A DNA stretch of 24,322 nucleotides from Bryobacteraceae bacterium (GTDB lineage: Bacteria; Acidobacteriota; Terriglobia; Bryobacterales; Bryobacteraceae): NCBI GenBank assembly GCA_039583505.1, contig JAVKSW010000001.1, positions 1-24,322 on the forward strand. Reading direction: 5' to 3'. Shown piece after piece: positions 496-9,173 of this stretch; position 1 is the stretch's first letter, and every line of letters starts with the position of its first letter. Under the pieces are notes generated by a model, which was not told the origin of the DNA, searched no databases, and was given only the letters and a program-made list of their open reading frames with translations. A program made the position numbers and the translations under genes.

Positions 496-2847
496 ATGCG
501 CATTCTTAGCAGGGCGATCTTTCGCGAGGTACTCACAAGCGCCAGCCTGGGAACGCTTCTGTTTGTATTCGTCCTGTTTCTCAGAACCATTGAGCGGCTC
601 TCGGCGCTGCTGGTAAAGACGTCAGCGCCTGCCGCGGTGGTGGTGCGGCTGCTGATGTACGCGCTGCCTTCTACCATCCCTTTCGCACTGCCCCTGGGCG
701 TTCTCGTGGGTATCTTAATCGGGCTCAGCCGCATGTCGACGGACAGCGAGATTACGGCCATGCGGGCGTCCGGAATCTCGAGCACGAGCGTGGCGCGGCC
801 CGTCCTGCTGTTTTCCTTCTTCGCGCTTGTGCTGACCGCGATGGCGTCGCTGTGGCTCACACCGTTGTCTCTTCACCTTGAATCGAAGGTGGCGCGCAAC
901 TTCGCCGCGGCACAGCTCACCGGCGCCATCGAATCACGTATCTTCGACGAACAGTTCCCCAACACGGTTCTCTACGTGGGAAACGTCAACACTGCCGCAA
1001 ATAAGCAGATCATGTGGAGTCAGGTTTTTATTGCGGATGTGACGCCTCCCGAGGAACTGCAACAACAGGGAAAGGATCGCGGGGAAGGGCCGCGCATTAT
1101 TGTTGCGGAAGAAGCCATCCCACACGCGGACCCGACCAACAACCGAGTGATTCTCGACATGAAAGGTGTTCGGACGACGGAGCGCGATAAAGAGGGAAAG
1201 GTCATCACGACTGCTGCGACTACACAGATCCAGACGCTCCAGGCGCAGAAACAGGAAGAGCTTCAGCTTAATAAGACCGTGCAGGAGATGGATACCGGTC
1301 CGCTTTACAAACGCGTATACCGTCAGCGCGGTCTTTCGCACGAAGACTACGTCGATGCGGCGATTGAGCTGCATCAACGCTTCGCTCTGCCACTCGCGTG
1401 CGTGTTGCTGGCCCTGGTAGGTATCCCACTCGGCGTGTCCTCGCGCAAGGGTGGCAAATCGGCCGCATTCATCGTCACGGTAGCAGTGGCATTTTTTTAT
1501 TACCTGGGGTTCATCACACTCATAGGGCTGGCGCGAAAAGGAAGCCTGCCGGTGCCGGTCGCGGTTTGGACTCCCGATCTGGTCTTTTCGATCGCGGGTA
1601 TCGTGTTGATGTCGCGTTTGGAAAGGCCGGGCGATCGCGATCTGGTGGCGTGGTTTCAGGGTCTTGCACGGCGCGTCGCTGGGGGCGTGAAATCGGTGCG
1701 GATGACGCCCGCACAAGGCGGACGGGTGAGGACGCTTCAGCGCTTCGGCCTTCGCCCTATGCTGATCGATGGTTATGTGCTGAATGGGTTCGTGTTCTAT
1801 TTCGTCGTGCTGGTAGCAGCGCTCGTAGCTCTGATTGAAATCTTCACGTTTTTCGAGTTGCTGGGTGACATGATCAAAAACGATATCGGCATGTCGACGA
1901 TGTTCGACTATCTGTATCATCTGGCGCCCAGTCTTATTTATCAGCTCACTCCGATTGGAACGCTCGTAGCCTCGTTGATCTGCTTCGGGATCCTCACCAA
2001 ATACAACGAGGTAACGGCGTTCAAGGCGGGTGGAGTAAGCGTGCACCGCCTCGCCGCGCCCGTTTTGTGCGCGAGTCTACTGGTGAGCGTCGCGCTGTTT
2101 GCGTTCGACCATTACTACATCCCCGAGGCGAATCGCAGACAGGAGATGCTGCGCGCACAAATTAAAAAGAAGCCGGTCGCCACCTACCTGCGCCTGGACC
2201 GCCAATGGGTGTACGGCCACGGCTCACGAATCTACAACTACCAATTTATGGATCCGCACCAGGCAATTTTGTCGAAAGTGAACGTCTACGAGTTGAACCC
2301 GAAGACCTTCGAAGTGGTGCGCCAGATTTCGGCAGAGCGGGCGCGCTGGGAACCAGCCTTGCGCACGTGGGTATTCCAGAACGGGATGAGCCACGACATC
2401 GGCGCCGGGGTCGATGCGTACAAGTGGTTCAAGGGTTCATCGGCGTCCTTCCCCGAACTAACCGAGGCTCCTTCCTGGTTCGTGCGGGAAGAGAAAGAGT
2501 ACAAGGAGATGAACTTCGAGGAACTCGGGACTTACATGCGCGAACAGCAGGCGAGCGGACTCGACATCACTCCTCTCCGTGTGCAGTATTACAAGAAATT
2601 CGCAGTCCCTCTGTTTGCGTTCATTATGGCGGTTCTCAGCGTTCCATTTGCTTTCATCGCCGGAAATCGCGGCGCGATGACCGGCGTGGGAATTAGCTTT
2701 GGAATCGCGATTGCCTATTGGACCATAGGAACCGTTTTCGAGCAGATCGGCGATTTAAACCAATTGCCGGCCGTTATGGCAGCCTGGTCGCCGGACGTTC
2801 TCTTTGCGCTATTCGGCTTCTATTTTATGGCGAGGATGAAGACATAG
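496..2847 (+). CDS. lptFG: Fused LPS export ABC transporter permease LptF-LptG (YjgP/YjgQ family, two tandem modules)
   Basis: 783 aa with two repeats of TM helices, a periplasmic beta-rich region and further TM helices. Module 1 has RMSTDSEITAMRASGIS and ELHQRFALPLAC. Module 2 starts near residue 422 (MLIDGYV) and has KYNEVTAFKAGGVS and YYKKFAVPL. No stop lies between the modules. Confidence 0.9.
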   Translation: MRILSRAIFREVLTSASLGTLLFVFVLFLRTIERLSALLVKTSAPAAVVVRLLMYALPSTIPFALPLGVLVGILIGLSRMSTDSEITAMRASGISSTSVARPVLLFSFFALVLTAMASLWLTPLSLHLESKVARNFAAAQLTGAIESRIFDEQFPNTVLYVGNVNTAANKQIMWSQVFIADVTPPEELQQQGKDRGEGPRIIVAEEAIPHADPTNNRVILDMKGVRTTERDKEGKVITTAATTQIQTLQAQKQEELQLNKTVQEMDTGPLYKRVYRQRGLSHEDYVDAAIELHQRFALPLACVLLALVGIPLGVSSRKGGKSAAFIVTVAVAFFYYLGFITLIGLARKGSLPVPVAVWTPDLVFSIAGIVLMSRLERPGDRDLVAWFQGLARRVAGGVKSVRMTPAQGGRVRTLQRFGLRPMLIDGYVLNGFVFYFVVLVAALVALIEIFTFFELLGDMIKNDIGMSTMFDYLYHLAPSLIYQLTPIGTLVASLICFGILTKYNEVTAFKAGGVSVHRLAAPVLCASLLVSVALFAFDHYYIPEANRRQEMLRAQIKKKPVATYLRLDRQWVYGHGSRIYNYQFMDPHQAILSKVNVYELNPKTFEVVRQISAERARWEPALRTWVFQNGMSHDIGAGVDAYKWFKGSSASFPELTEAPSWFVREEKEYKEMNFEELGTYMREQQASGLDITPLRVQYYKKFAVPLFAFIMAVLSVPFAFIAGNRGAMTGVGISFGIAIAYWTIGTVFEQIGDLNQLPAVMAAWSPDVLFALFGFYFMARMKT

Positions 2848-5329: not shown

Positions 5330-5375
5330 AATGATTCCGTTACAAAATCTCGGGATCATAAAAGCTGCTTATCGA

Positions 5376-7064
5376 ATGATGCTCAGATCGCACCCTGTGT
5401 TGACCGGGGTCGTTTTCCTAACGGCACTTTCCGTCGGTACCTCCAAAGGAGGCACAAACCGAGTTTTTGTTCCTGGCGTAAGCTTTGCGGCGACAGCCAG
5501 CGCGGATGCCGCTGAAGCTGCGGCGGACGCCGAGTGGTCCCTGCCCGACGATTCTTCAAGTGACCTCAGCGCCGCGGCGGGTGACGTGTCCGCGGTCCAT
5601 TCACCGGAAACCGACGACCGCCTGAAGCGCGCGGACGATCATTTCAATACCGGACGAGAGATGTATTTCGAAGGCAACATGGCTGGTGCGCGGCGGGAGT
5701 TCGATGCTGCTGTCGATGTACTGCTGACTGCGCCCGACGCACTGCCCGACCACCGCCGCATTGAACGGCGTCTCGACGAGATTTGCGATCTAATCTACCG
5801 CTTCGACGTGGAGAAACTGGGAGCCGGCCAAACCGAGCAGGACGCGGTGGTTTTCGATAAGGCGCCGATCGACGAAATCAGCCACATGACTTTTCCGGTC
5901 GATCCAGCACTTGCGCCCAAACTTCAGATGGAGTTGAATCAGACCGCCTCGGGCATCCCGCTGGAGCTGGCCGATCCAGTGCTCGGTTACGTTCATTATT
6001 TCTCGACTGATCGCGGCCGCAGGACGCTCGAATCCGGACTGCGCCGTTCCGGCCGGTACAAGCCGCTCATCGAGCGCATCTTCGCGGAAGAGGGTGTTCC
6101 CCAGGAGTTGCTCTACTTGGCCCAAGCCGAATCCGGTTTTCTGCCTCGCGCGGTCTCCTATAAGCGGGCAGTCGGCATGTGGCAGTTCACCTATGCCGCC
6201 GGAGTTGACTATTCGTTGGGACGTAACTCCGTCTATGACGAGCGCCTGGACCCTGAAAAGGCGACTCGCGCCGCCGCCAAATACCTTAAGAGCCTGTACG
6301 CCCGCTATGGCGATTGGTACTTGGCCATGGCCGCTTACAACTGCGGGCCCGGGTTGGTGGATCGCGCGGTGGAGAGAACCGGCTATGCCGATTACTGGGA
6401 GCTCCTGAAGCGTCACGCGCTGCCCAAGGAAACTGCAAATTACGTACCTATCATTCTGGCCATGACCATCATGGCAAAGAATCCGAAGGATTATGGATTG
6501 GAGAACATTGATACCGATGCGCCGGTCGAATATGATTCCATCTATCTCACGGCGCCGACCAATCTGAACCTTGTCGCCGACGCGACCATGCAGCCGCTTT
6601 CGGTGATTCGCGATCTGAATCCATCGCTGCTGAGGATGCTTGCTCCAGCGGGTTTTGAAGTGCATGTTCCCAAAGGCACCGCCGAAACCGCGCAAGCCGC
6701 TCTTGAAACCGTGCCTGCCGATAGCCGTCAGGCTTGGCGCCTCCATCATGTGGAGGCGGGCGATACGCTGGAGGCGATCGCCAAAATCTACCACTTGAGC
6801 GCCGATCGAATCGTTGCCGTCAATCACGCCGCGGATTCGTTGGAAACCGGCGACGTGCTTCTGATTCCCGCGGTTTACCACGCTGAGCCGCAGGCCTCAC
6901 GCCTGTCACGGAGCGCTCACCGCAAAGCCGCACTTTCCTCGGCGTTCCGGTCGAATAAGACTTCGGCAGCCCAGCATGGCTCGCACTTGGCCGCAGGGCG
7001 CCACTTACCTGTGCAGGTCCTACACCGCAAAGCTGCCGTTCGCACGGCGAGCTTAGAACGATAA
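5376..7064 (+). CDS. MltD-like lytic transglycosylase (SLT domain + LysM), secreted
   Basis: N-terminal hydrophobic signal (VLTGVVFLTALSVG). SLT motifs are LAQAESGF (catalytic Glu), AVGMWQF, AAYNCG and ETANYVP. One clear LysM (HHVEAGDTLEAIAKIY...LETGDVLLIP). The ORF track starts it at 5331. Confidence 0.9.
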   Translation: MMLRSHPVLTGVVFLTALSVGTSKGGTNRVFVPGVSFAATASADAAEAAADAEWSLPDDSSSDLSAAAGDVSAVHSPETDDRLKRADDHFNTGREMYFEGNMAGARREFDAAVDVLLTAPDALPDHRRIERRLDEICDLIYRFDVEKLGAGQTEQDAVVFDKAPIDEISHMTFPVDPALAPKLQMELNQTASGIPLELADPVLGYVHYFSTDRGRRTLESGLRRSGRYKPLIERIFAEEGVPQELLYLAQAESGFLPRAVSYKRAVGMWQFTYAAGVDYSLGRNSVYDERLDPEKATRAAAKYLKSLYARYGDWYLAMAAYNCGPGLVDRAVERTGYADYWELLKRHALPKETANYVPIILAMTIMAKNPKDYGLENIDTDAPVEYDSIYLTAPTNLNLVADATMQPLSVIRDLNPSLLRMLAPAGFEVHVPKGTAETAQAALETVPADSRQAWRLHHVEAGDTLEAIAKIYHLSADRIVAVNHAADSLETGDVLLIPAVYHAEPQASRLSRSAHRKAALSSAFRSNKTSAAQHGSHLAAGRHLPVQVLHRKAAVRTASLER

Positions 7065-7190
7065 AGCGGCGCATTCGTTCTTTTCGCAGAGCTTTTTCCA
7101 TTTAGCTCTTGCCATTCCTCACAGCTTGTGAAATCATTTTGCTGCCTGCATCATCTCGATGCTTAGTGAAATGTGTGAAAGGAGGAGTCG

Positions 7191-7931
7191 ATGAGTTTAC
7201 GATACGGGCTTCGACCAGAAGACGAGGACGACGATTTCGAATACGAAGATGAGCACGTCGAAATGGAGTCCGACAAGAACGAGTACGCCGGCGCTGATGA
7301 CGAAGACGACGAGGAAGAGGAACTAGAAGAGGAAGAAGCGGCTACCACCGGCAAGAAGGCGGCATCGAAGCACGAAGGCGGAAGCGCTGCCAGCGAGAAT
7401 GGGAACCGCGGTGAGCAGGCGGAATCGCCTCGCAAGAGCAGCGGCAGTTCGGGAAGAAAAACACGCGGCAGCAGTTCGGAAACTTCCGGGCCGGCCACAG
7501 GCGCTGGCGCGGGGACCGAACATGAGCCGGAAGAACGACCCGCCAAGAAGAGTGCTGGCGCAACGAAGCGCTCCGGCGGAGCAAAGAAGACCTCCGAGGC
7601 GCAGACGAGTTCCGGGGGCCCTCAGAAGAGTTCTGGCCGGACAGCGCCTCTTAAGAAGGCGGGAGCCTCGGGGGGAAGCAGAAGCGCAAATAAGCGAGCG
7701 GGGGGCGCCAGCAAGTCTGCTGCCTCGAAACGCGGCAAAACCGCCAAGAAAACGGCCTCCCGGAGTGCTTCTAGGAAATCCGGTGCCAAAGCCACAAAGA
7801 AGGCCGGTGGTGCGAAAAAGACCGCCCAGAAGAGGACTGCGGCTAAGAAGACTGGTTCCAAAAAGGCTGCCTCCAAGAAAGGCGGCTCTAAGAAATCCGC
7901 ACAGAAGAAGGCCGCCCGGAAAAGGAGATAG
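7191..7931 (+). CDS. Low-complexity protein with Asp/Glu-rich N-terminus and histone H1-like Lys/Ala/Ser-rich C-terminus
   Basis: Strong SD AGGAGG at 7180-7185. Residues 10-49 hold 27 D/E in 40 aa. The C-terminal ~130 aa hold 43 K/R and one acidic residue. Confidence 0.85.
   Translation: MSLRYGLRPEDEDDDFEYEDEHVEMESDKNEYAGADDEDDEEEELEEEEAATTGKKAASKHEGGSAASENGNRGEQAESPRKSSGSSGRKTRGSSSETSGPATGAGAGTEHEPEERPAKKSAGATKRSGGAKKTSEAQTSSGGPQKSSGRTAPLKKAGASGGSRSANKRAGGASKSAASKRGKTAKKTASRSASRKSGAKATKKAGGAKKTAQKRTAAKKTGSKKAASKKGGSKKSAQKKAARKRR
7806..7928 (+). repeat. Tandem degenerate pentapeptide repeat (xxxK[K/R]) x8 inside the H1-like protein
   Basis: GGAKK TAQKR TAAKK TGSKK AASKK GGSKK SAQKK AARKR R, which is a 15-nt period in the DNA. 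Confidence 0.85.
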
Positions 7932-7938
7932 CGCAGGC

Positions 7939-7980
7939 CGGGCGTGCCGGCATGCGCCCGATTGGGCAGCGGCGAACCGC
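7939..7980. terminator. GC-rich hairpins between convergent genes (possible pause or termination signal)
   Basis: CGGGCG...CGCCCG at 7939-7960 and GCGG-CGAA-CCGC at 7969-7980. There is no U-tract on either strand, so these are not canonical intrinsic terminators. Confidence 0.3.
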
Positions 7981-8003
7981 CCGCGAGCGCTTCCGTAGTT
8001 CAG

Positions 8004-8216
8004 CTACTTGGTTTTGCGGACCACGGCGCGGCAGCGCTCGAACAGCTCGAGCAACGACTCGGCGTACTCCTCGCTCGAGCGCGAGCCCTTTCCGCCGAAG
8101 CCGGTGCTCGAAGTGCCTCGCCCGTACCCTGTCGTCACGGCGATAAACTTCATCAACTCGAGTGCAACTTCGTCCGGAGTTTTGGGCGTTTGCTTCTCTG
8201 AGAAGTCTTCAACCAT
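8004..8216 (-). CDS. 70-aa hypothetical protein (predicted helix - Gly/Ser loop - helix)
   Basis: SD AAGGAG sits 11 nt before the ATG. The ORF occupies otherwise empty intergenic space and has protein-like amphipathic segments PDEVALELMKFIAV and EEYAESLLELFERCRAVV. Confidence 0.8.
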   Translation of the reverse strand: MVEDFSEKQTPKTPDEVALELMKFIAVTTGYGRGTSSTGFGGKGSRSSEEYAESLLELFERCRAVVRKTK

Positions 8217-8339
8217 AGTTTCGTTTGCTCCTTAATAGCTGAGTGCTAAAACATAGGCTACCAGTGGCTTGGTTCGAGTTGCCGGATTCGAGTTTCTCGG
8301 ATCCGCCCTCGCTGCCGGTCCCCGCCCTAACTGGAATGC

Positions 8340-9173
8340 ATGCCGGTTCGCGCCCGCAATTTAATCCGTAAGATGCGCGGCGGAGCGCAAGCGCATCTGC
8401 TCGAGGCCGAGGACGGTGGGTTTTACGTGGTCAAGTTCACCAATAACCCGCAACATCGCCGCATTCTCATTAACGAATGGTTGGCCTGCGCGCTTCTTCG
8501 CTACCTGCAGATTCATGTTCCCGAAACCGCCATTGTCGAACTAACTCCCGAGTTCCTCGCCAACAATCCCGAGATCTATCTCTCTATTGGCTCACGCCAC
8601 GAGCCGGTTCCGCCCGGTCTTCACTTTGGCTCCCGGATGGCGGTTCATCCCGAGCGCGTCGCGGTTTTCGACTTCCTGCCCGATAAGTTGCTCGAAAAGG
8701 TGGAAAACCGCATCGAATTCCTGGGTATCCTGGCCTTCGACAAATGGGTCGGAAATGCCGACTCGCGCCAAGCCGTTTTCTTTCGTGCTCGGGCCAAGAG
8801 CTGGACTCCATTAAAGGGCGAAACAGTCGCACGAATTGGGTTTTTCGCCCAAATGATCGATCATGGCTTCGCCTTCAATGGTTCGAATTGGCACTTCCAG
8901 GACTCTCCGATTCAAGGACTTTACTTCCGAACCTCCGTCTATGACGAGGTGCGCTCACTCGATTCGTTCCAGCCATGGCTCGACATGATCGGGAATTTTC
9001 CGGTTGAAGTAATTGATTCTGCCTGGAAGGAGATCCCGCGAGCGTGGCTGGGCGATGATGAGGATGCGCTGGAGCAACTGCTCGAAGCCTTGCTTAAGCG
9101 CCGGGCTCGAGTACCCGCACTCATAAAAGACGTGCAGCGGACACGCTCGAGCGCTTTCCCAAATTGGAGTTAA
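8340..9173 (+). CDS. HipA-like Ser/Thr kinase (HipA_2-type)
   Basis: Gly-rich loop MRGGAQAH, beta3 Lys in YVVKF, alphaC Glu in INEW, catalytic loop FDKWVGNADSR and Mg-binding IDHG. All appear intact. Confidence 0.85.
   Translation: MPVRARNLIRKMRGGAQAHLLEAEDGGFYVVKFTNNPQHRRILINEWLACALLRYLQIHVPETAIVELTPEFLANNPEIYLSIGSRHEPVPPGLHFGSRMAVHPERVAVFDFLPDKLLEKVENRIEFLGILAFDKWVGNADSRQAVFFRARAKSWTPLKGETVARIGFFAQMIDHGFAFNGSNWHFQDSPIQGLYFRTSVYDEVRSLDSFQPWLDMIGNFPVEVIDSAWKEIPRAWLGDDEDALEQLLEALLKRRARVPALIKDVQRTRSSAFPNWS

What the first reader, a model, noticed from the sequence alone, without database searches (positions are those of the whole stretch)
7191..7931. Charge-segregated disordered protein: polyacidic head fused to an H1-like polybasic tail
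Seen: 27 D/E in residues 10-49, a Gly/Ser-rich mixed middle, then 43 K/R with one acidic residue in the last ~130 aa, ending in eight xxxK[K/R] pentapeptides. No globular domain is evident and there is a very strong SD. Established: bacterial H1-like proteins (Chlamydia Hc1/Hc2, Pseudomonas AlgP, HupB tail) carry basic repeats, and the acidic disordered protein prothymosin alpha binds H1 and releases it from DNA. Inference: this chain may carry its own acidic chaperone or auto-inhibitor, acting as a switchable DNA/RNA/polyphosphate condenser or phase-separating scaffold.
Basis: partly seen in the sequence, partly recalled or inferred. Interest (0 to 1): 0.62.

Follow-up and report, generated by a model that had tools for sequence, protein, structure and literature searches.

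The report
Conserved acid-head, basic-tail disordered protein
This is a real, unannotated gene for a fully disordered protein with a strongly acidic front end and a histone-H1-like basic tail. It is kept in nearly every family of the soil bacterial class Terriglobia and most likely coats DNA, RNA or another cellular polyanion, with the acidic end acting as a built-in brake or docking site.

Summary
Window 7191-7931(+) encodes 246 aa, with 27 D/E in residues 10-49, then 43 K/R and one acidic residue in the last 130. It ends in eight in-register xxxK[K/R] pentads and has a strong SD.

The gene is real. Only this frame is open in 18/18 orthologues, and it has its own conserved promoter and leader. 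There is no Pfam or NCBIfam hit, and AlphaFold2 predicts no structure.

Both charge blocks are kept in 93 unique orthologues (head about -24, tail about +42, net positive in 89/93). The layout is found across most families of class Terriglobia and in only 1 of about 270 genomes from other classes. Sequence turns over quickly except for a short acidic/aromatic N-terminal motif.

The ancestral gene order is MltD-like transglycosylase, then this gene, then a vertically inherited HipA_2-like kinase. A phosphatase joins in two families. The protein also occurs in kinase-less families, so it does not depend on the kinase.

My best reading is an H1/Hc2-like polyanion binder with a partly neutralising acidic head; function is untested. 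Sources call members only "hypothetical protein". This scan met the same kinase/phosphatase/acid-basic trio before on other DNA (e1-1372611).

The parts
7109..7137 (+). Promoter-like site: TTGCCA, 17 nt, then TGTGAAATCAT (extended -10-like)
   Evidence: Consensus scan. The GAAAT core is invariant and its flanks are highly conserved in 18 same-genus loci (A3).
7138..7176 (+). Conserved 5' leader containing the inverted repeat GCATC-ATCTC-GATGC (7148-7162)
   Evidence: Many invariant columns in A3. The fold is not better than shuffles and changes are not compensatory, so conservation is at sequence level (operator or leader). No Rfam match.
7177..7187 (+). Shine-Dalgarno GAAAGGAGGAG
   Evidence: AAAGGAGGAG-like in nearly all orthologues, 3-8 nt before ATG/GTG.
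7191..7931 (+). Coding sequence of the 246-aa disordered protein (stop included)
   Evidence: Only this frame is open in 18/18 orthologues; the other five frames have stops in 18/18. Orthologues in 18/24 same-genus genomes.
7191..7286 (+). Conserved N-terminal acidic/aromatic motif (aa 1-32: MSLRYGLRPEDEDDDFEYEDEHVEMESDKNEY)
   Evidence: A2: D15 F16 Y18 E19 D20 E21 H22 S27 K29 E31 Y32 are invariant in 18 sequences. The profile hits 63/200 genomes of the family.
7218..7337 (+). Polyacidic block (aa 10-49, 27 D/E)
   Evidence: Head net charge has median -24 across 93 orthologues.
7338..7538 (+). Variable Gly/Ser/Ala/Glu linker (aa 50-116)
   Evidence: poorly alignable and length-variable. It is a Pro-rich hinge in other families.
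7539..7928 (+). Lys/Ala/Ser/Gly-rich basic tail (aa 117-246; 43 K/R, 1 acidic), ending KRR
   Evidence: Tail net charge has median +42. Tails of two relatives hit PF07382 HC2 below the cut-off.
7806..7925 (+). Eight in-register xxxK[K/R] pentapeptides (aa 206-245)
   Evidence: 0 of 20000 shuffles. At the DNA level there is only a weak 15-nt repeat at 7857-7895.
5331..7064 (+). Upstream neighbour: MltD-like lytic transglycosylase (SLT + LysM)
   Evidence: Pfam. Directly upstream of the gene in 36/42 family loci, in families f4, f103, f106, f107 and f6, and in f5 5/5.
8004..8216 (-). Convergent 70-aa conserved protein ('small70'), divergent from the kinase gene
   Evidence: Present in 40/42 loci. 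AF2 gives a helical hairpin at pLDDT 75. No PDB fold match. Detected by profile only in f1, f106, f105 and one f5 locus.
8340..9173 (+). HipA_2-like Ser/Thr kinase, 277 aa
   Evidence: PF20613 at 6.5e-13; PADLOC PDC-M66A at 3e-10. Found in 165/251 genomes of the class and in none of about 270 from other classes. Its tree mirrors taxonomy.

Best explanation
Window 7191-7931(+) is a genuine gene with its own promoter and a strong ribosome-binding site. It encodes a 246-aa, fully disordered 'diblock' protein with three parts:
- a conserved N-terminal acidic/aromatic motif plus a polyacidic run (net about -24);
- a fast-evolving Gly/Ser (elsewhere Pro-rich) hinge;
- a Lys/Ala/Ser tail of the histone-H1/Hc2 type (net about +43) ending in K/R-R-R.

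It is the Bryobacteraceae form of a gene kept in most families of class Terriglobia.

Proposed mechanism (inferred, not shown): the acid-free polycationic tail binds a cellular polyanion. Nucleoid DNA is the most likely target; RNA, ribosomes or polyphosphate are possible. The acidic head folds back on the tail or bridges to tails of other molecules. This partly neutralises the tail, so binding is weaker, salt-sensitive and reversible, and self-association or condensate formation is favoured. The conserved aromatic motif in the head may also dock a specific partner.

In most lineages the gene lies beside a vertically inherited HipA_2-like Ser/Thr kinase, joined by a dual-specificity phosphatase in two families. 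These could tune the charge balance by phosphorylation. That coupling is optional, because kinase-less families keep the protein.

Shown here: gene reality, disorder prediction, conserved architecture and charge budget, taxonomic range, gene order.
Inferred: the ligand, auto-inhibition, condensation and phospho-control.
For: Coding and expression signals:
- Only this frame is open in 18/18 orthologues.
- SD, promoter-like site and leader are conserved.

Disorder:
- No Pfam or NCBIfam domain.
- AF2 gives pLDDT 46.6 with no secondary structure.

Architecture under selection:
- In 93 unique orthologues the head is -24 (IQR 21-28), the tail is +42 (IQR 38-47), and 89/93 are net positive. Length ranges from 105 to 331 aa and identity to the window protein falls to about 20-35%.
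- The tails carry no or almost no D/E.
- Aromatic residues make up 6.1% of heads versus 0.9% elsewhere.
- The N-motif has 11 invariant non-Met positions within the genus.

Range:
- The cross-family profile hits f103 33/35, f4 34/37, f105 4/4, f106 6/7, f104 11/14, f5 27/38 and f100 5/6.
- It hits 1 of about 270 genomes from other classes.
- There are 319 cluster representatives in 1.84 billion proteins, and 129 of the best 150 have the same layout.

H1/Hc2 likeness of the tail:
- Eight pentads.
- PF07382 HC2 at 32 and 26 bits in two relatives, below the 40-bit cut-off.
- An Atlas neighbour cluster carries HC2 in 11% of members.

Established knowledge (not tested here): Lys/Ala-rich tails of Hc1/Hc2, AlgP and HupB bind DNA or polyP (AlgP: PMC9239181, abstract seen). 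Acidic tracts damp basic DNA-binding regions in HMGB1, SSB and ProT-alpha/H1.

Kinase link:
- Adjacent in f1 40/42.
- Adjacent in f4 8/10, f103 9/9, f104 8/8 (inverted there, without the SLT gene), f106 4/4, f107 1/1 and f6 1/1.
- DSP phosphatase next to the module in f104 and f106.
Against: - There is no experimental datum of any kind: no expression, binding or localisation evidence.
- Head and tail charges barely co-vary (rho 0.20, uncorrected for phylogeny), and the head covers only about half of the tail charge. Full self-neutralisation is therefore not the design.
- Four orthologues with expanded polyacid runs are net negative (L015, L027, L028, L054). That fits poorly with a simple DNA binder.
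- The window protein itself does not reach any Pfam H1-like model.
- Kinase coupling is not obligatory. The protein occurs in kinase-less f100 and f102 and lies far from the kinase in many f5 genomes.
- A candidate conserved Ser-x-Tyr site in the head is only weakly enriched over shuffles (69% versus 61%).
Confidence: 0.5

Rival explanations
1. The protein's main role is as partner of the HipA_2-like kinase. It would be the kinase's substrate, or a disordered neutraliser standing in for the missing DUF3037/HipB-type antitoxin. The basic tail would be incidental or a tether.
For: - Adjacency to the kinase is kept across kinase divergence down to about 40% identity.
- It is kept even after inversion and loss of the SLT neighbour in f104.
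- A DSP phosphatase joins the pair in f104 and f106.
- No DUF3037 lies at the locus, although in the known HipA-like+DUF3037 pair DUF3037 neutralises the kinase (PMC12548924).
- An earlier scan note, e1-1372611, saw the same trio.
Against: - Proteins of the same layout exist in kinase-less families: f100 5/6 and some f102.
- In f5 the gene stays with the SLT-LysM gene while the kinase lies 11 kb to more than 400 kb away.
- Adjacency has been broken several times inside kinase clades, in part by an insert carrying a terminase-like gene.
- The kinase is single-copy and vertically inherited, unlike mobile toxin-antitoxin pairs.
Confidence: 0.17
2. The polyanion target is RNA or the ribosome rather than DNA. 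The protein would be an RNA chaperone, ribosome-assembly or hibernation factor, or a scaffold of an RNA-rich condensate, like charge-patterned RNase E tails.
For: - Same physical features as the main reading: polycationic acid-free tail, disorder, strong expression signals.
- A weak Pfam echo of the 'Ribosome receptor lysine/proline rich region' in one relative (E 0.35), which is not significant.
Against: No ribosomal or RNA-metabolism genes are conserved next to it. There is no RNA-binding domain. Nothing here separates RNA from DNA as ligand.
Confidence: 0.15
3. It is a stress protectant of the hydrophilin/LEA type, or a generic polyampholyte 'molecular shield' against desiccation or freezing in soil, without a specific ligand.
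For: The protein is fully disordered and very hydrophilic, with high Gly/Ser/Ala/Lys/Glu content, and it is found in soil-dwelling Terriglobia (record titles).
Against: - Strict segregation of charges, an acid-free tail and a conserved aromatic head motif are not needed for a shield.
- No LEA or hydrophilin Pfam family matched.
Confidence: 0.08
4. It works with the upstream MltD-like lytic transglycosylase in cell-wall remodelling or division.
For: SLT-LysM followed by this gene is the most widely kept adjacency: f1 36/42, plus f4, f5 5/5, f6, f103, f106 and f107.
Against: - There is no signal peptide or membrane segment, whereas MltD-type enzymes act outside the cytoplasm.
- The gene has its own promoter.
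- f104, f100 and f102 keep the gene without the SLT neighbour.
Confidence: 0.05
5. It is not a real gene: the ORF opened by chance in purine-rich DNA.
For: Low-complexity sequence keeps long ORFs open in other frames too (7399-7998 on +, 7163-7546 on -).
Against: Only the called frame is open in all 18 orthologues. SD and promoter are conserved. Hundreds of homologues keep the same layout.
Confidence: 0.01

Closest known systems
Chlamydial histone H1-like proteins Hc1/Hc2 (HctA/HctB; Pfam PF07382 HC2)
   Same: Lys/Ala-rich, acid-poor, disordered region built of pentapeptide-type repeats. Tails of two relatives score 32 and 26 bits on HC2.
   Different: Hc2 has no conserved polyacidic/aromatic head. 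The window protein does not match HC2 at E<=0.1, and relatives stay under the 40-bit cut-off. Taxon and gene context differ.
Pseudomonas AlgP (AlgR3), an H1-like protein of polyphosphate granules (PMC9239181)
   Same: A bacterial protein with a long Lys/Ala/Pro repeat tail that associates with a cellular polyanion.
   Different: From my own knowledge, AlgP has a structured or coiled N-terminal part rather than a polyacidic head. Here AF2 shows no helix. No sequence relation was found.
Eukaryotic acidic-brake systems: the HMGB1 acidic tail, the prothymosin-alpha/H1 complex, and Drosophila dBigH1 with its acidic N-terminal domain (PMC7192587)
   Same: A polyacidic disordered segment paired with a polybasic DNA-binding segment. 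dBigH1 carries both in one chain, with the acidic part at the N-terminus.
   Different: There is no homology and no globular winged-helix or HMG domain here. This case is bacterial and restricted to one class. Intramolecular contact is untested.
Streptomyces DdbA and other bacterial proteins with H1-like tails (HupB/Hlp, PhaF) (DdbA: PMC3643593)
   Same: They use a Lys/Ala-rich low-complexity region as the DNA-binding element.
   Different: Those proteins join the tail to a folded domain (DksA-like, HU, phasin). Here the partner block is itself disordered and acidic.
HipA-like kinase + DUF3037 pair (PADLOC PDC-M66; DS-6), in which DUF3037 neutralises a toxic kinase (PMC12548924)
   Same: The neighbouring kinase is of the same short HipA_2 type (PF20613, PDC-M66A).
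   Different: No DUF3037 lies at the locus. The kinase is single-copy, vertically inherited and confined to one class. The neighbour is a disordered acid/basic protein instead.

Membership tests
Histone H1-like nucleoprotein HC2 (PF07382) | Match to the Pfam model above the gathering score (40 bits) | tested here: not met
   The window protein has no hit at E<=0.1. Relatives L078 and L015 score 32.2 and 26 bits, below the cut-off.
Histone H1-like nucleoprotein HC2 (PF07382) | Lys/Ala-rich pentapeptide-type repeats in an acid-poor region | tested here: met
   Eight in-register xxxK[K/R] pentads. The last 130 aa hold 43 K/R and 1 acidic residue.
Histone H1-like nucleoprotein HC2 (PF07382) | Binds and condenses DNA | not testable with these tools
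   Needs EMSA or microscopy.
HipA_2 + DUF3037 toxin/neutraliser pair (PDC-M66) | Short HipA-like kinase of family PF20613 | tested here: met
   PF20613 at 6.5e-13, above the cut-off. PDC-M66A at 3.3e-10.
HipA_2 + DUF3037 toxin/neutraliser pair (PDC-M66) | Adjacent DUF3037 (PF11236) gene | tested here: not met
   None in the window or in G000, which is 65% complete. In complete relatives DUF3037 lies megabases from the module.
HipA_2 + DUF3037 toxin/neutraliser pair (PDC-M66) | Patchy, mobile distribution typical of defence or TA modules | tested here: not met
   The kinase is mostly single-copy, found in 165/251 genomes of the class, and its tree follows taxonomy.
Auto-inhibited basic DNA binders (HMGB1 / ProT-alpha-H1 type mechanism) | An acidic disordered tract and a basic tract, both conserved | tested here: met
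   93/93 orthologues keep both blocks.
Auto-inhibited basic DNA binders (HMGB1 / ProT-alpha-H1 type mechanism) | The acidic tract contacts the basic tract and lowers nucleic-acid affinity | not testable with these tools
   Needs NMR, smFRET and binding assays of full-length versus head-deleted protein. The indirect test (charge co-variation) was weak: rho 0.20.
AlgP-type polyP-granule protein | Structured or coiled N-terminal part followed by KPAA-type repeats | tested here: not met
   AF2 predicts no helices. The head is polyacidic.
LEA / hydrophilin stress proteins | Match to LEA or hydrophilin family models | tested here: not met
   No Pfam family at E<=0.1.

The most novel reading that the evidence does not exclude
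Terriglobia have a class-specific, self-chaperoned analogue of a linker histone. It would be one disordered chain that joins a prothymosin-like acidic head to an H1-like tail and forms salt- and phosphorylation-tunable condensates with the nucleoid (or RNA, or polyP). Its charge balance would be set by a domesticated HipA-type toxin kinase and, in some families, a dual-specificity phosphatase. That would be a chromosomal phospho-switch built from a former toxin.
Probability: 0.15. Interest if true: 0.8.

Novelty: new variant of a known kind. Interest (0 to 1): 0.6.

Why it matters
Bacterial H1-like proteins are known as basic tails, either alone or attached to folded domains. A class-wide family in which the tail is always paired in cis with a conserved polyacidic/aromatic head has not been described, as far as my searches reach. 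There is no Pfam or NCBIfam model, and public sources say only 'hypothetical protein'.

It would give a natural, minimal, fully disordered diblock polyampholyte for testing how charge patterning controls nucleic-acid binding and condensation in bacteria. Acidobacteriota are abundant soil organisms whose nucleoid biology is almost unknown.

The conserved neighbourhood with a vertically inherited HipA_2-type kinase also bears on how toxin-type kinases become housekeeping regulators.

Tried and rejected
- **Whole-protein word-index search:** swamped by low-complexity words, no hit.
- **Same search limited to residues 1-45:** one hit only, because E-values are too harsh for 45 aa in 5.8 billion sequences.
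- **Exact look-ups of 10 orthologues:** none on record. Start codons probably differ or the MAG proteins are not indexed.
- **PDB sequence search with the N-motif profile:** nothing.
- **Foldseek on the small70 model:** nothing.
- **Rfam on 6950-8400:** nothing.
- **5' leader hairpin and the inter-gene stretch after the stop:** neither folds better than shuffles. I rejected a structured RNA element.
- **Stoichiometric head-tail charge compensation:** rejected (rho 0.20).
- **A universal Ser-x(0-4)-Tyr/Phe phospho-site in the head:** only weakly enriched, so not claimed.
- **Phyletic co-occurrence with the kinase:** at first kinase-less families seemed to lack the gene. The genome-wide profile search overturned this.
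- **'No-IDP' loci:** several were displaced genes or genes cut by my fetch window.
- **Codon-usage inference of expression level:** considered and dropped as too weak for such a skewed composition.
- **Literature searches:** no paper on this family.
Full report
**1. Observation**

The ORF at 7191-7931(+) exists as described. It encodes 246 aa.
- Residues 10-49 contain 27 D/E and one K/R.
- Residues 50-116 are a Gly/Ser/Ala-rich mixed stretch.
- The last 130 residues contain 43 K/R and one acidic residue.

A charge-segregation measure exceeds all 2000 shuffles of the sequence. Residues 206-245 are eight in-register xxxK[K/R] pentapeptides, a run never reached in 20000 shuffles of the tail. At the DNA level there is only a weak 15-nt repeat, so this is not a recent tandem expansion. 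GAAAGGAGGAG ends 3 nt before the ATG.

**2. It is a real gene**

Orthologues were found in 18 of 24 genomes of the same genus. All 18 that I extracted carry three things: an AAAGGAGGAG-type SD with a GTG or ATG start, an N-terminus of the form VSLxYWLxPEDEDDDFDYEDEHVE[LM]ESDKDEY followed by a polyacidic run, and a (A/S/P)KK-repeat tail of 72-158 residues free of D/E that ends in K/R-R-R.

Across these orthologues only the called frame is open in 18/18. Each of the other five frames has stops in 18/18. The long alternative ORFs are therefore by-products of the composition.

The 80 nt upstream are better conserved than the coding linker. They hold a TTGCCA-17-TGTGAAATCAT promoter-like site and then a leader with many invariant positions that contains GCATC-N5-GATGC. 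The gene thus has its own promoter. The leader does not fold better than shuffles, its changes are not compensatory, and Rfam has nothing. I read it as sequence-level conservation, an operator or a leader.

**3. No fold, no family**

Pfam, NCBIfam and PADLOC give nothing for the protein. AlphaFold2 with the 18-sequence alignment gives mean pLDDT 46.6 and no secondary structure; only the first 40 residues rise to 54-58. A PDB sequence search with the N-motif profile finds nothing. The ESM Atlas lists only unnamed clusters of Acidobacteriota and Gemmatimonadota, one of which carries PF07382 HC2 in 11% of members. Tails of two relatives reach 32 and 26 bits on HC2, under the 40-bit cut-off. Public sources call members 'hypothetical protein [Terriglobia bacterium]'.

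**4. Range**

*The genus-level N-motif profile (A2).* Eleven non-Met positions are invariant. The profile hits 63 of 200 genomes (50 of 140 genera) of the window's family and nothing in 397 genomes drawn across the rest of the phylum. Named records are all MAGs labelled Bryobacteraceae, Terriglobia or Acidobacteriaceae.

*The family is much wider than the motif.* In four of five family genomes without a motif hit, the same slot holds a diverged protein with an acid/aromatic head and an AKK tail. The fifth has it elsewhere, behind the SLT-LysM gene.

*Using the neighbouring kinase as anchor.* I found proteins of 105-233 aa in six further families of the class. They have an acidic/aromatic head, a Pro-rich hinge and a K/R tail ending in RRR(R).

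*The cross-family profile (A5), genome-wide*:

| Family | Genomes with a hit |
|---|---|
| f103 | 33/35 |
| f4 | 34/37 |
| f105 | 4/4 |
| f106 | 6/7 |
| f104 | 11/14 |
| f5 | 27/38 |
| f6 | 1/1 |
| f100 | 5/6 |
| f102 | 6/35 |
| f101 | 0/31 |
| f107 | 0/4 |

- The profile is insensitive to the long f1 forms and even misses the window's own genome.
- It also scores f107 0/4, although one f107 locus (L120) holds such a protein. So zero counts are weak evidence of absence.
- In about 270 genomes of other classes it hits once, weakly.
- In 1.84 billion cluster representatives it finds 319 proteins at E<=0.001, and 129 of the best 150 have the same layout.

Three unpublished genomes (G693, G710, G716) enter only the tallies. 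No sequence from them is used or shown.

**5. What is conserved**

Over 93 unique orthologues:
- head net charge has median -24 (IQR 21-28);
- tail net charge has median +42 (IQR 38-47);
- 89 of 93 are net positive;
- length ranges from 105 to 331 aa.

Identity to the window protein in the cross-family alignment is 18-38%. Four members with expanded polyacid runs are net negative.

Head and tail charges hardly co-vary (Spearman 0.20, not corrected for relatedness). Each block therefore seems held near its own set-point rather than matched to the other.

Aromatic residues are concentrated in the head (6.1% versus 0.9%). In my curated cross-family set the N-terminus reads M-x-[F/L/I/Y]-[D/E/...] in most sequences (MAFD, MSFD, MTFD, MRLD, MSLxY). 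An automatic count over uncurated starts was much lower (44-61 of 171), so I give this as an impression only. A Ser-x(0-4)-Tyr/Phe element is only weakly enriched.

**6. Gene order**

In the window the order is ClpP, MltD-like SLT+LysM transglycosylase, this gene, a convergent 70-aa gene, a HipA_2-like kinase, a ThiO-like oxidase, then a LysR regulator and leucine-biosynthesis genes.

Within the family, the 70-aa gene and the kinase follow the gene in 40 of 42 loci and SLT-LysM precedes it in 36 of 42. This holds even where all other neighbours differ.

*The kinase.* It is found in 165 of 251 genomes of the class and in none of about 270 from other classes. It is mostly single-copy and its tree reproduces the taxonomic families. 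It is therefore a vertically inherited gene, not a mobile toxin.

*Adjacency of the disordered-protein gene to the kinase*:

| Family | Adjacent loci | Note |
|---|---|---|
| f4 | 8/10 | |
| f103 | 9/9 | |
| f104 | 8/8 | gene divergent from the kinase, no SLT neighbour; one copy frame-disrupted |
| f106 | 4/4 | |
| f107 | 1/1 | |
| f6 | 1/1 | |
| f5 | 0/4 | |
| f2 | 0/1 | |
| f105 | 0/2 | one of these loci runs off its contig end |

- In f5 the gene stays directly behind SLT-LysM (5/5). The kinase lies 11-16 kb away on the same contig in several genomes and far away in others.
- There, and in two f4 genomes, a terminase-large-subunit-like gene sits directly before the kinase. In G783 a 4.3-kb insert separates the two genes.
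- A dual-specificity phosphatase (PF00782 at 7e-11) sits in the module in f106 and in most f104 loci.
- DUF3037 is the known neutraliser of HipA-like kinases in the PDC-M66/DS-6 pair (PMC12548924). It is not at the locus, and where relatives have it, it lies megabases away.
- Kinase-less families f100 and f102 have proteins of the same layout in other contexts. The protein therefore does not depend on the kinase.

*The 70-aa neighbour.* It is a conserved helical hairpin with pLDDT 75 and no PDB fold match. My profile detects it only in f1, f106, f105 and one f5 locus.

**7. Interpretation**

Shown:
- a real, probably well-expressed gene;
- a fully disordered product;
- long-term selection for an acidic/aromatic head, a hinge and an acid-free polycationic tail with stable charge budgets;
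- restriction to class Terriglobia;
- an ancestral gene order between an MltD-like gene and a HipA_2-like kinase that has been broken at different points in different lineages.

Inferred from established properties of Lys/Ala-rich tails (Hc1/Hc2, AlgP, HupB) and of acidic brakes (HMGB1 tail, SSB tip, ProT-alpha/H1, dBigH1):
- the tail binds DNA or another polyanion;
- the head partly neutralises it or bridges molecules;
- the aromatic motif may dock a partner.

The kinase, with or without the phosphatase, is a plausible but optional tuner. I put about 0.5 on this composite. Lower weights go to a kinase-centred role, an RNA or ribosome target, a stress-shield role and an envelope role.

**8. 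Novelty**

No literature on this family turned up. It is best filed as a new variant of the bacterial H1-like polycationic proteins, one with an obligatory conserved acidic head. It is not a member of PF07382, because the model threshold was tested and not met.

This scan has met the same kinase/phosphatase/acid-basic trio before in another acidobacterial genome (e1-1372611). It has also noted the stand-alone kinase with its divergent small gene in other windows.

Noticed in passing
window 7109-7190: Promoter-like site plus a highly conserved 5' leader with the inverted repeat GCATC-ATCTC-GATGC (7148-7162). It is better conserved than the coding linker. It has no RNA-fold signal and no Rfam match, so it may be an operator.
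   Followed up: partly
window 8004-8216 (-): An unannotated-type 70-aa gene, conserved in 40/42 family loci. AF2 gives a helical hairpin (H13-28, H47-67) with a Gly-rich loop. The invariant positions form an AL..MKF block and a C-terminal L..RC, with conserved TGYG and a Gly between them. No Pfam hit and no PDB fold match. It is divergent from the kinase gene.
   Followed up: partly
window 8340-9173 (+): A HipA_2-like kinase (P-loop-like RGGAQ, YVVKF, GNADSR, IDHG) that is single-copy, vertically inherited and confined to class Terriglobia, with no DUF3037 or HTH partner. It looks like a domesticated toxin-type kinase.
   Followed up: partly
L119:3388-3906 (+), L118:3394-3909, L127:2705-3142, L153/L155/L156/L157: A dual-specificity phosphatase gene (PF00782, motif HCSAGVHRG) is inserted in the module in families f106 and f104. 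This gives a kinase/phosphatase pair around the disordered protein.
   Followed up: partly
L121:2324-3901, L143:1384-2964, L168:5884-7464: In f5 and two f4 genomes a ~525-aa terminase-large-subunit-like gene (Terminase_6C) lies directly upstream of the kinase. In G783 it is part of a 4.3-kb insert that separates the disordered-protein gene from the kinase.
   Followed up: partly
L156:3939-4807: In one f104 orthologue the acidic head and the AKK tail lie in different frames. This is either a frameshifted pseudogene or an assembly error.
   Followed up: no
L015:2153-3145, L027:802-1614, L028:880-1617, L054: These orthologues have greatly expanded polyacidic regions (62-80 D/E) that make the whole protein net negative (-18 to -32) while the basic tail is kept.
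   Followed up: no
L119:2452-2928, L118:2549-2947: In f106 the tail is Arg/Pro-rich, with perfect PARRKPARR-type repeats instead of AKK repeats. The charge is kept but the chemistry has changed.
   Followed up: no
window 496-2847 (+): A 783-aa ORF with two LptF_LptG stretches, apparently a fused LptF-LptG permease.
   Followed up: no
window 5331-7064 and orthologues (L111, L115, L118): The MltD-like SLT-LysM proteins themselves end in Ser/Lys/Arg-rich low-complexity tails.
   Followed up: no
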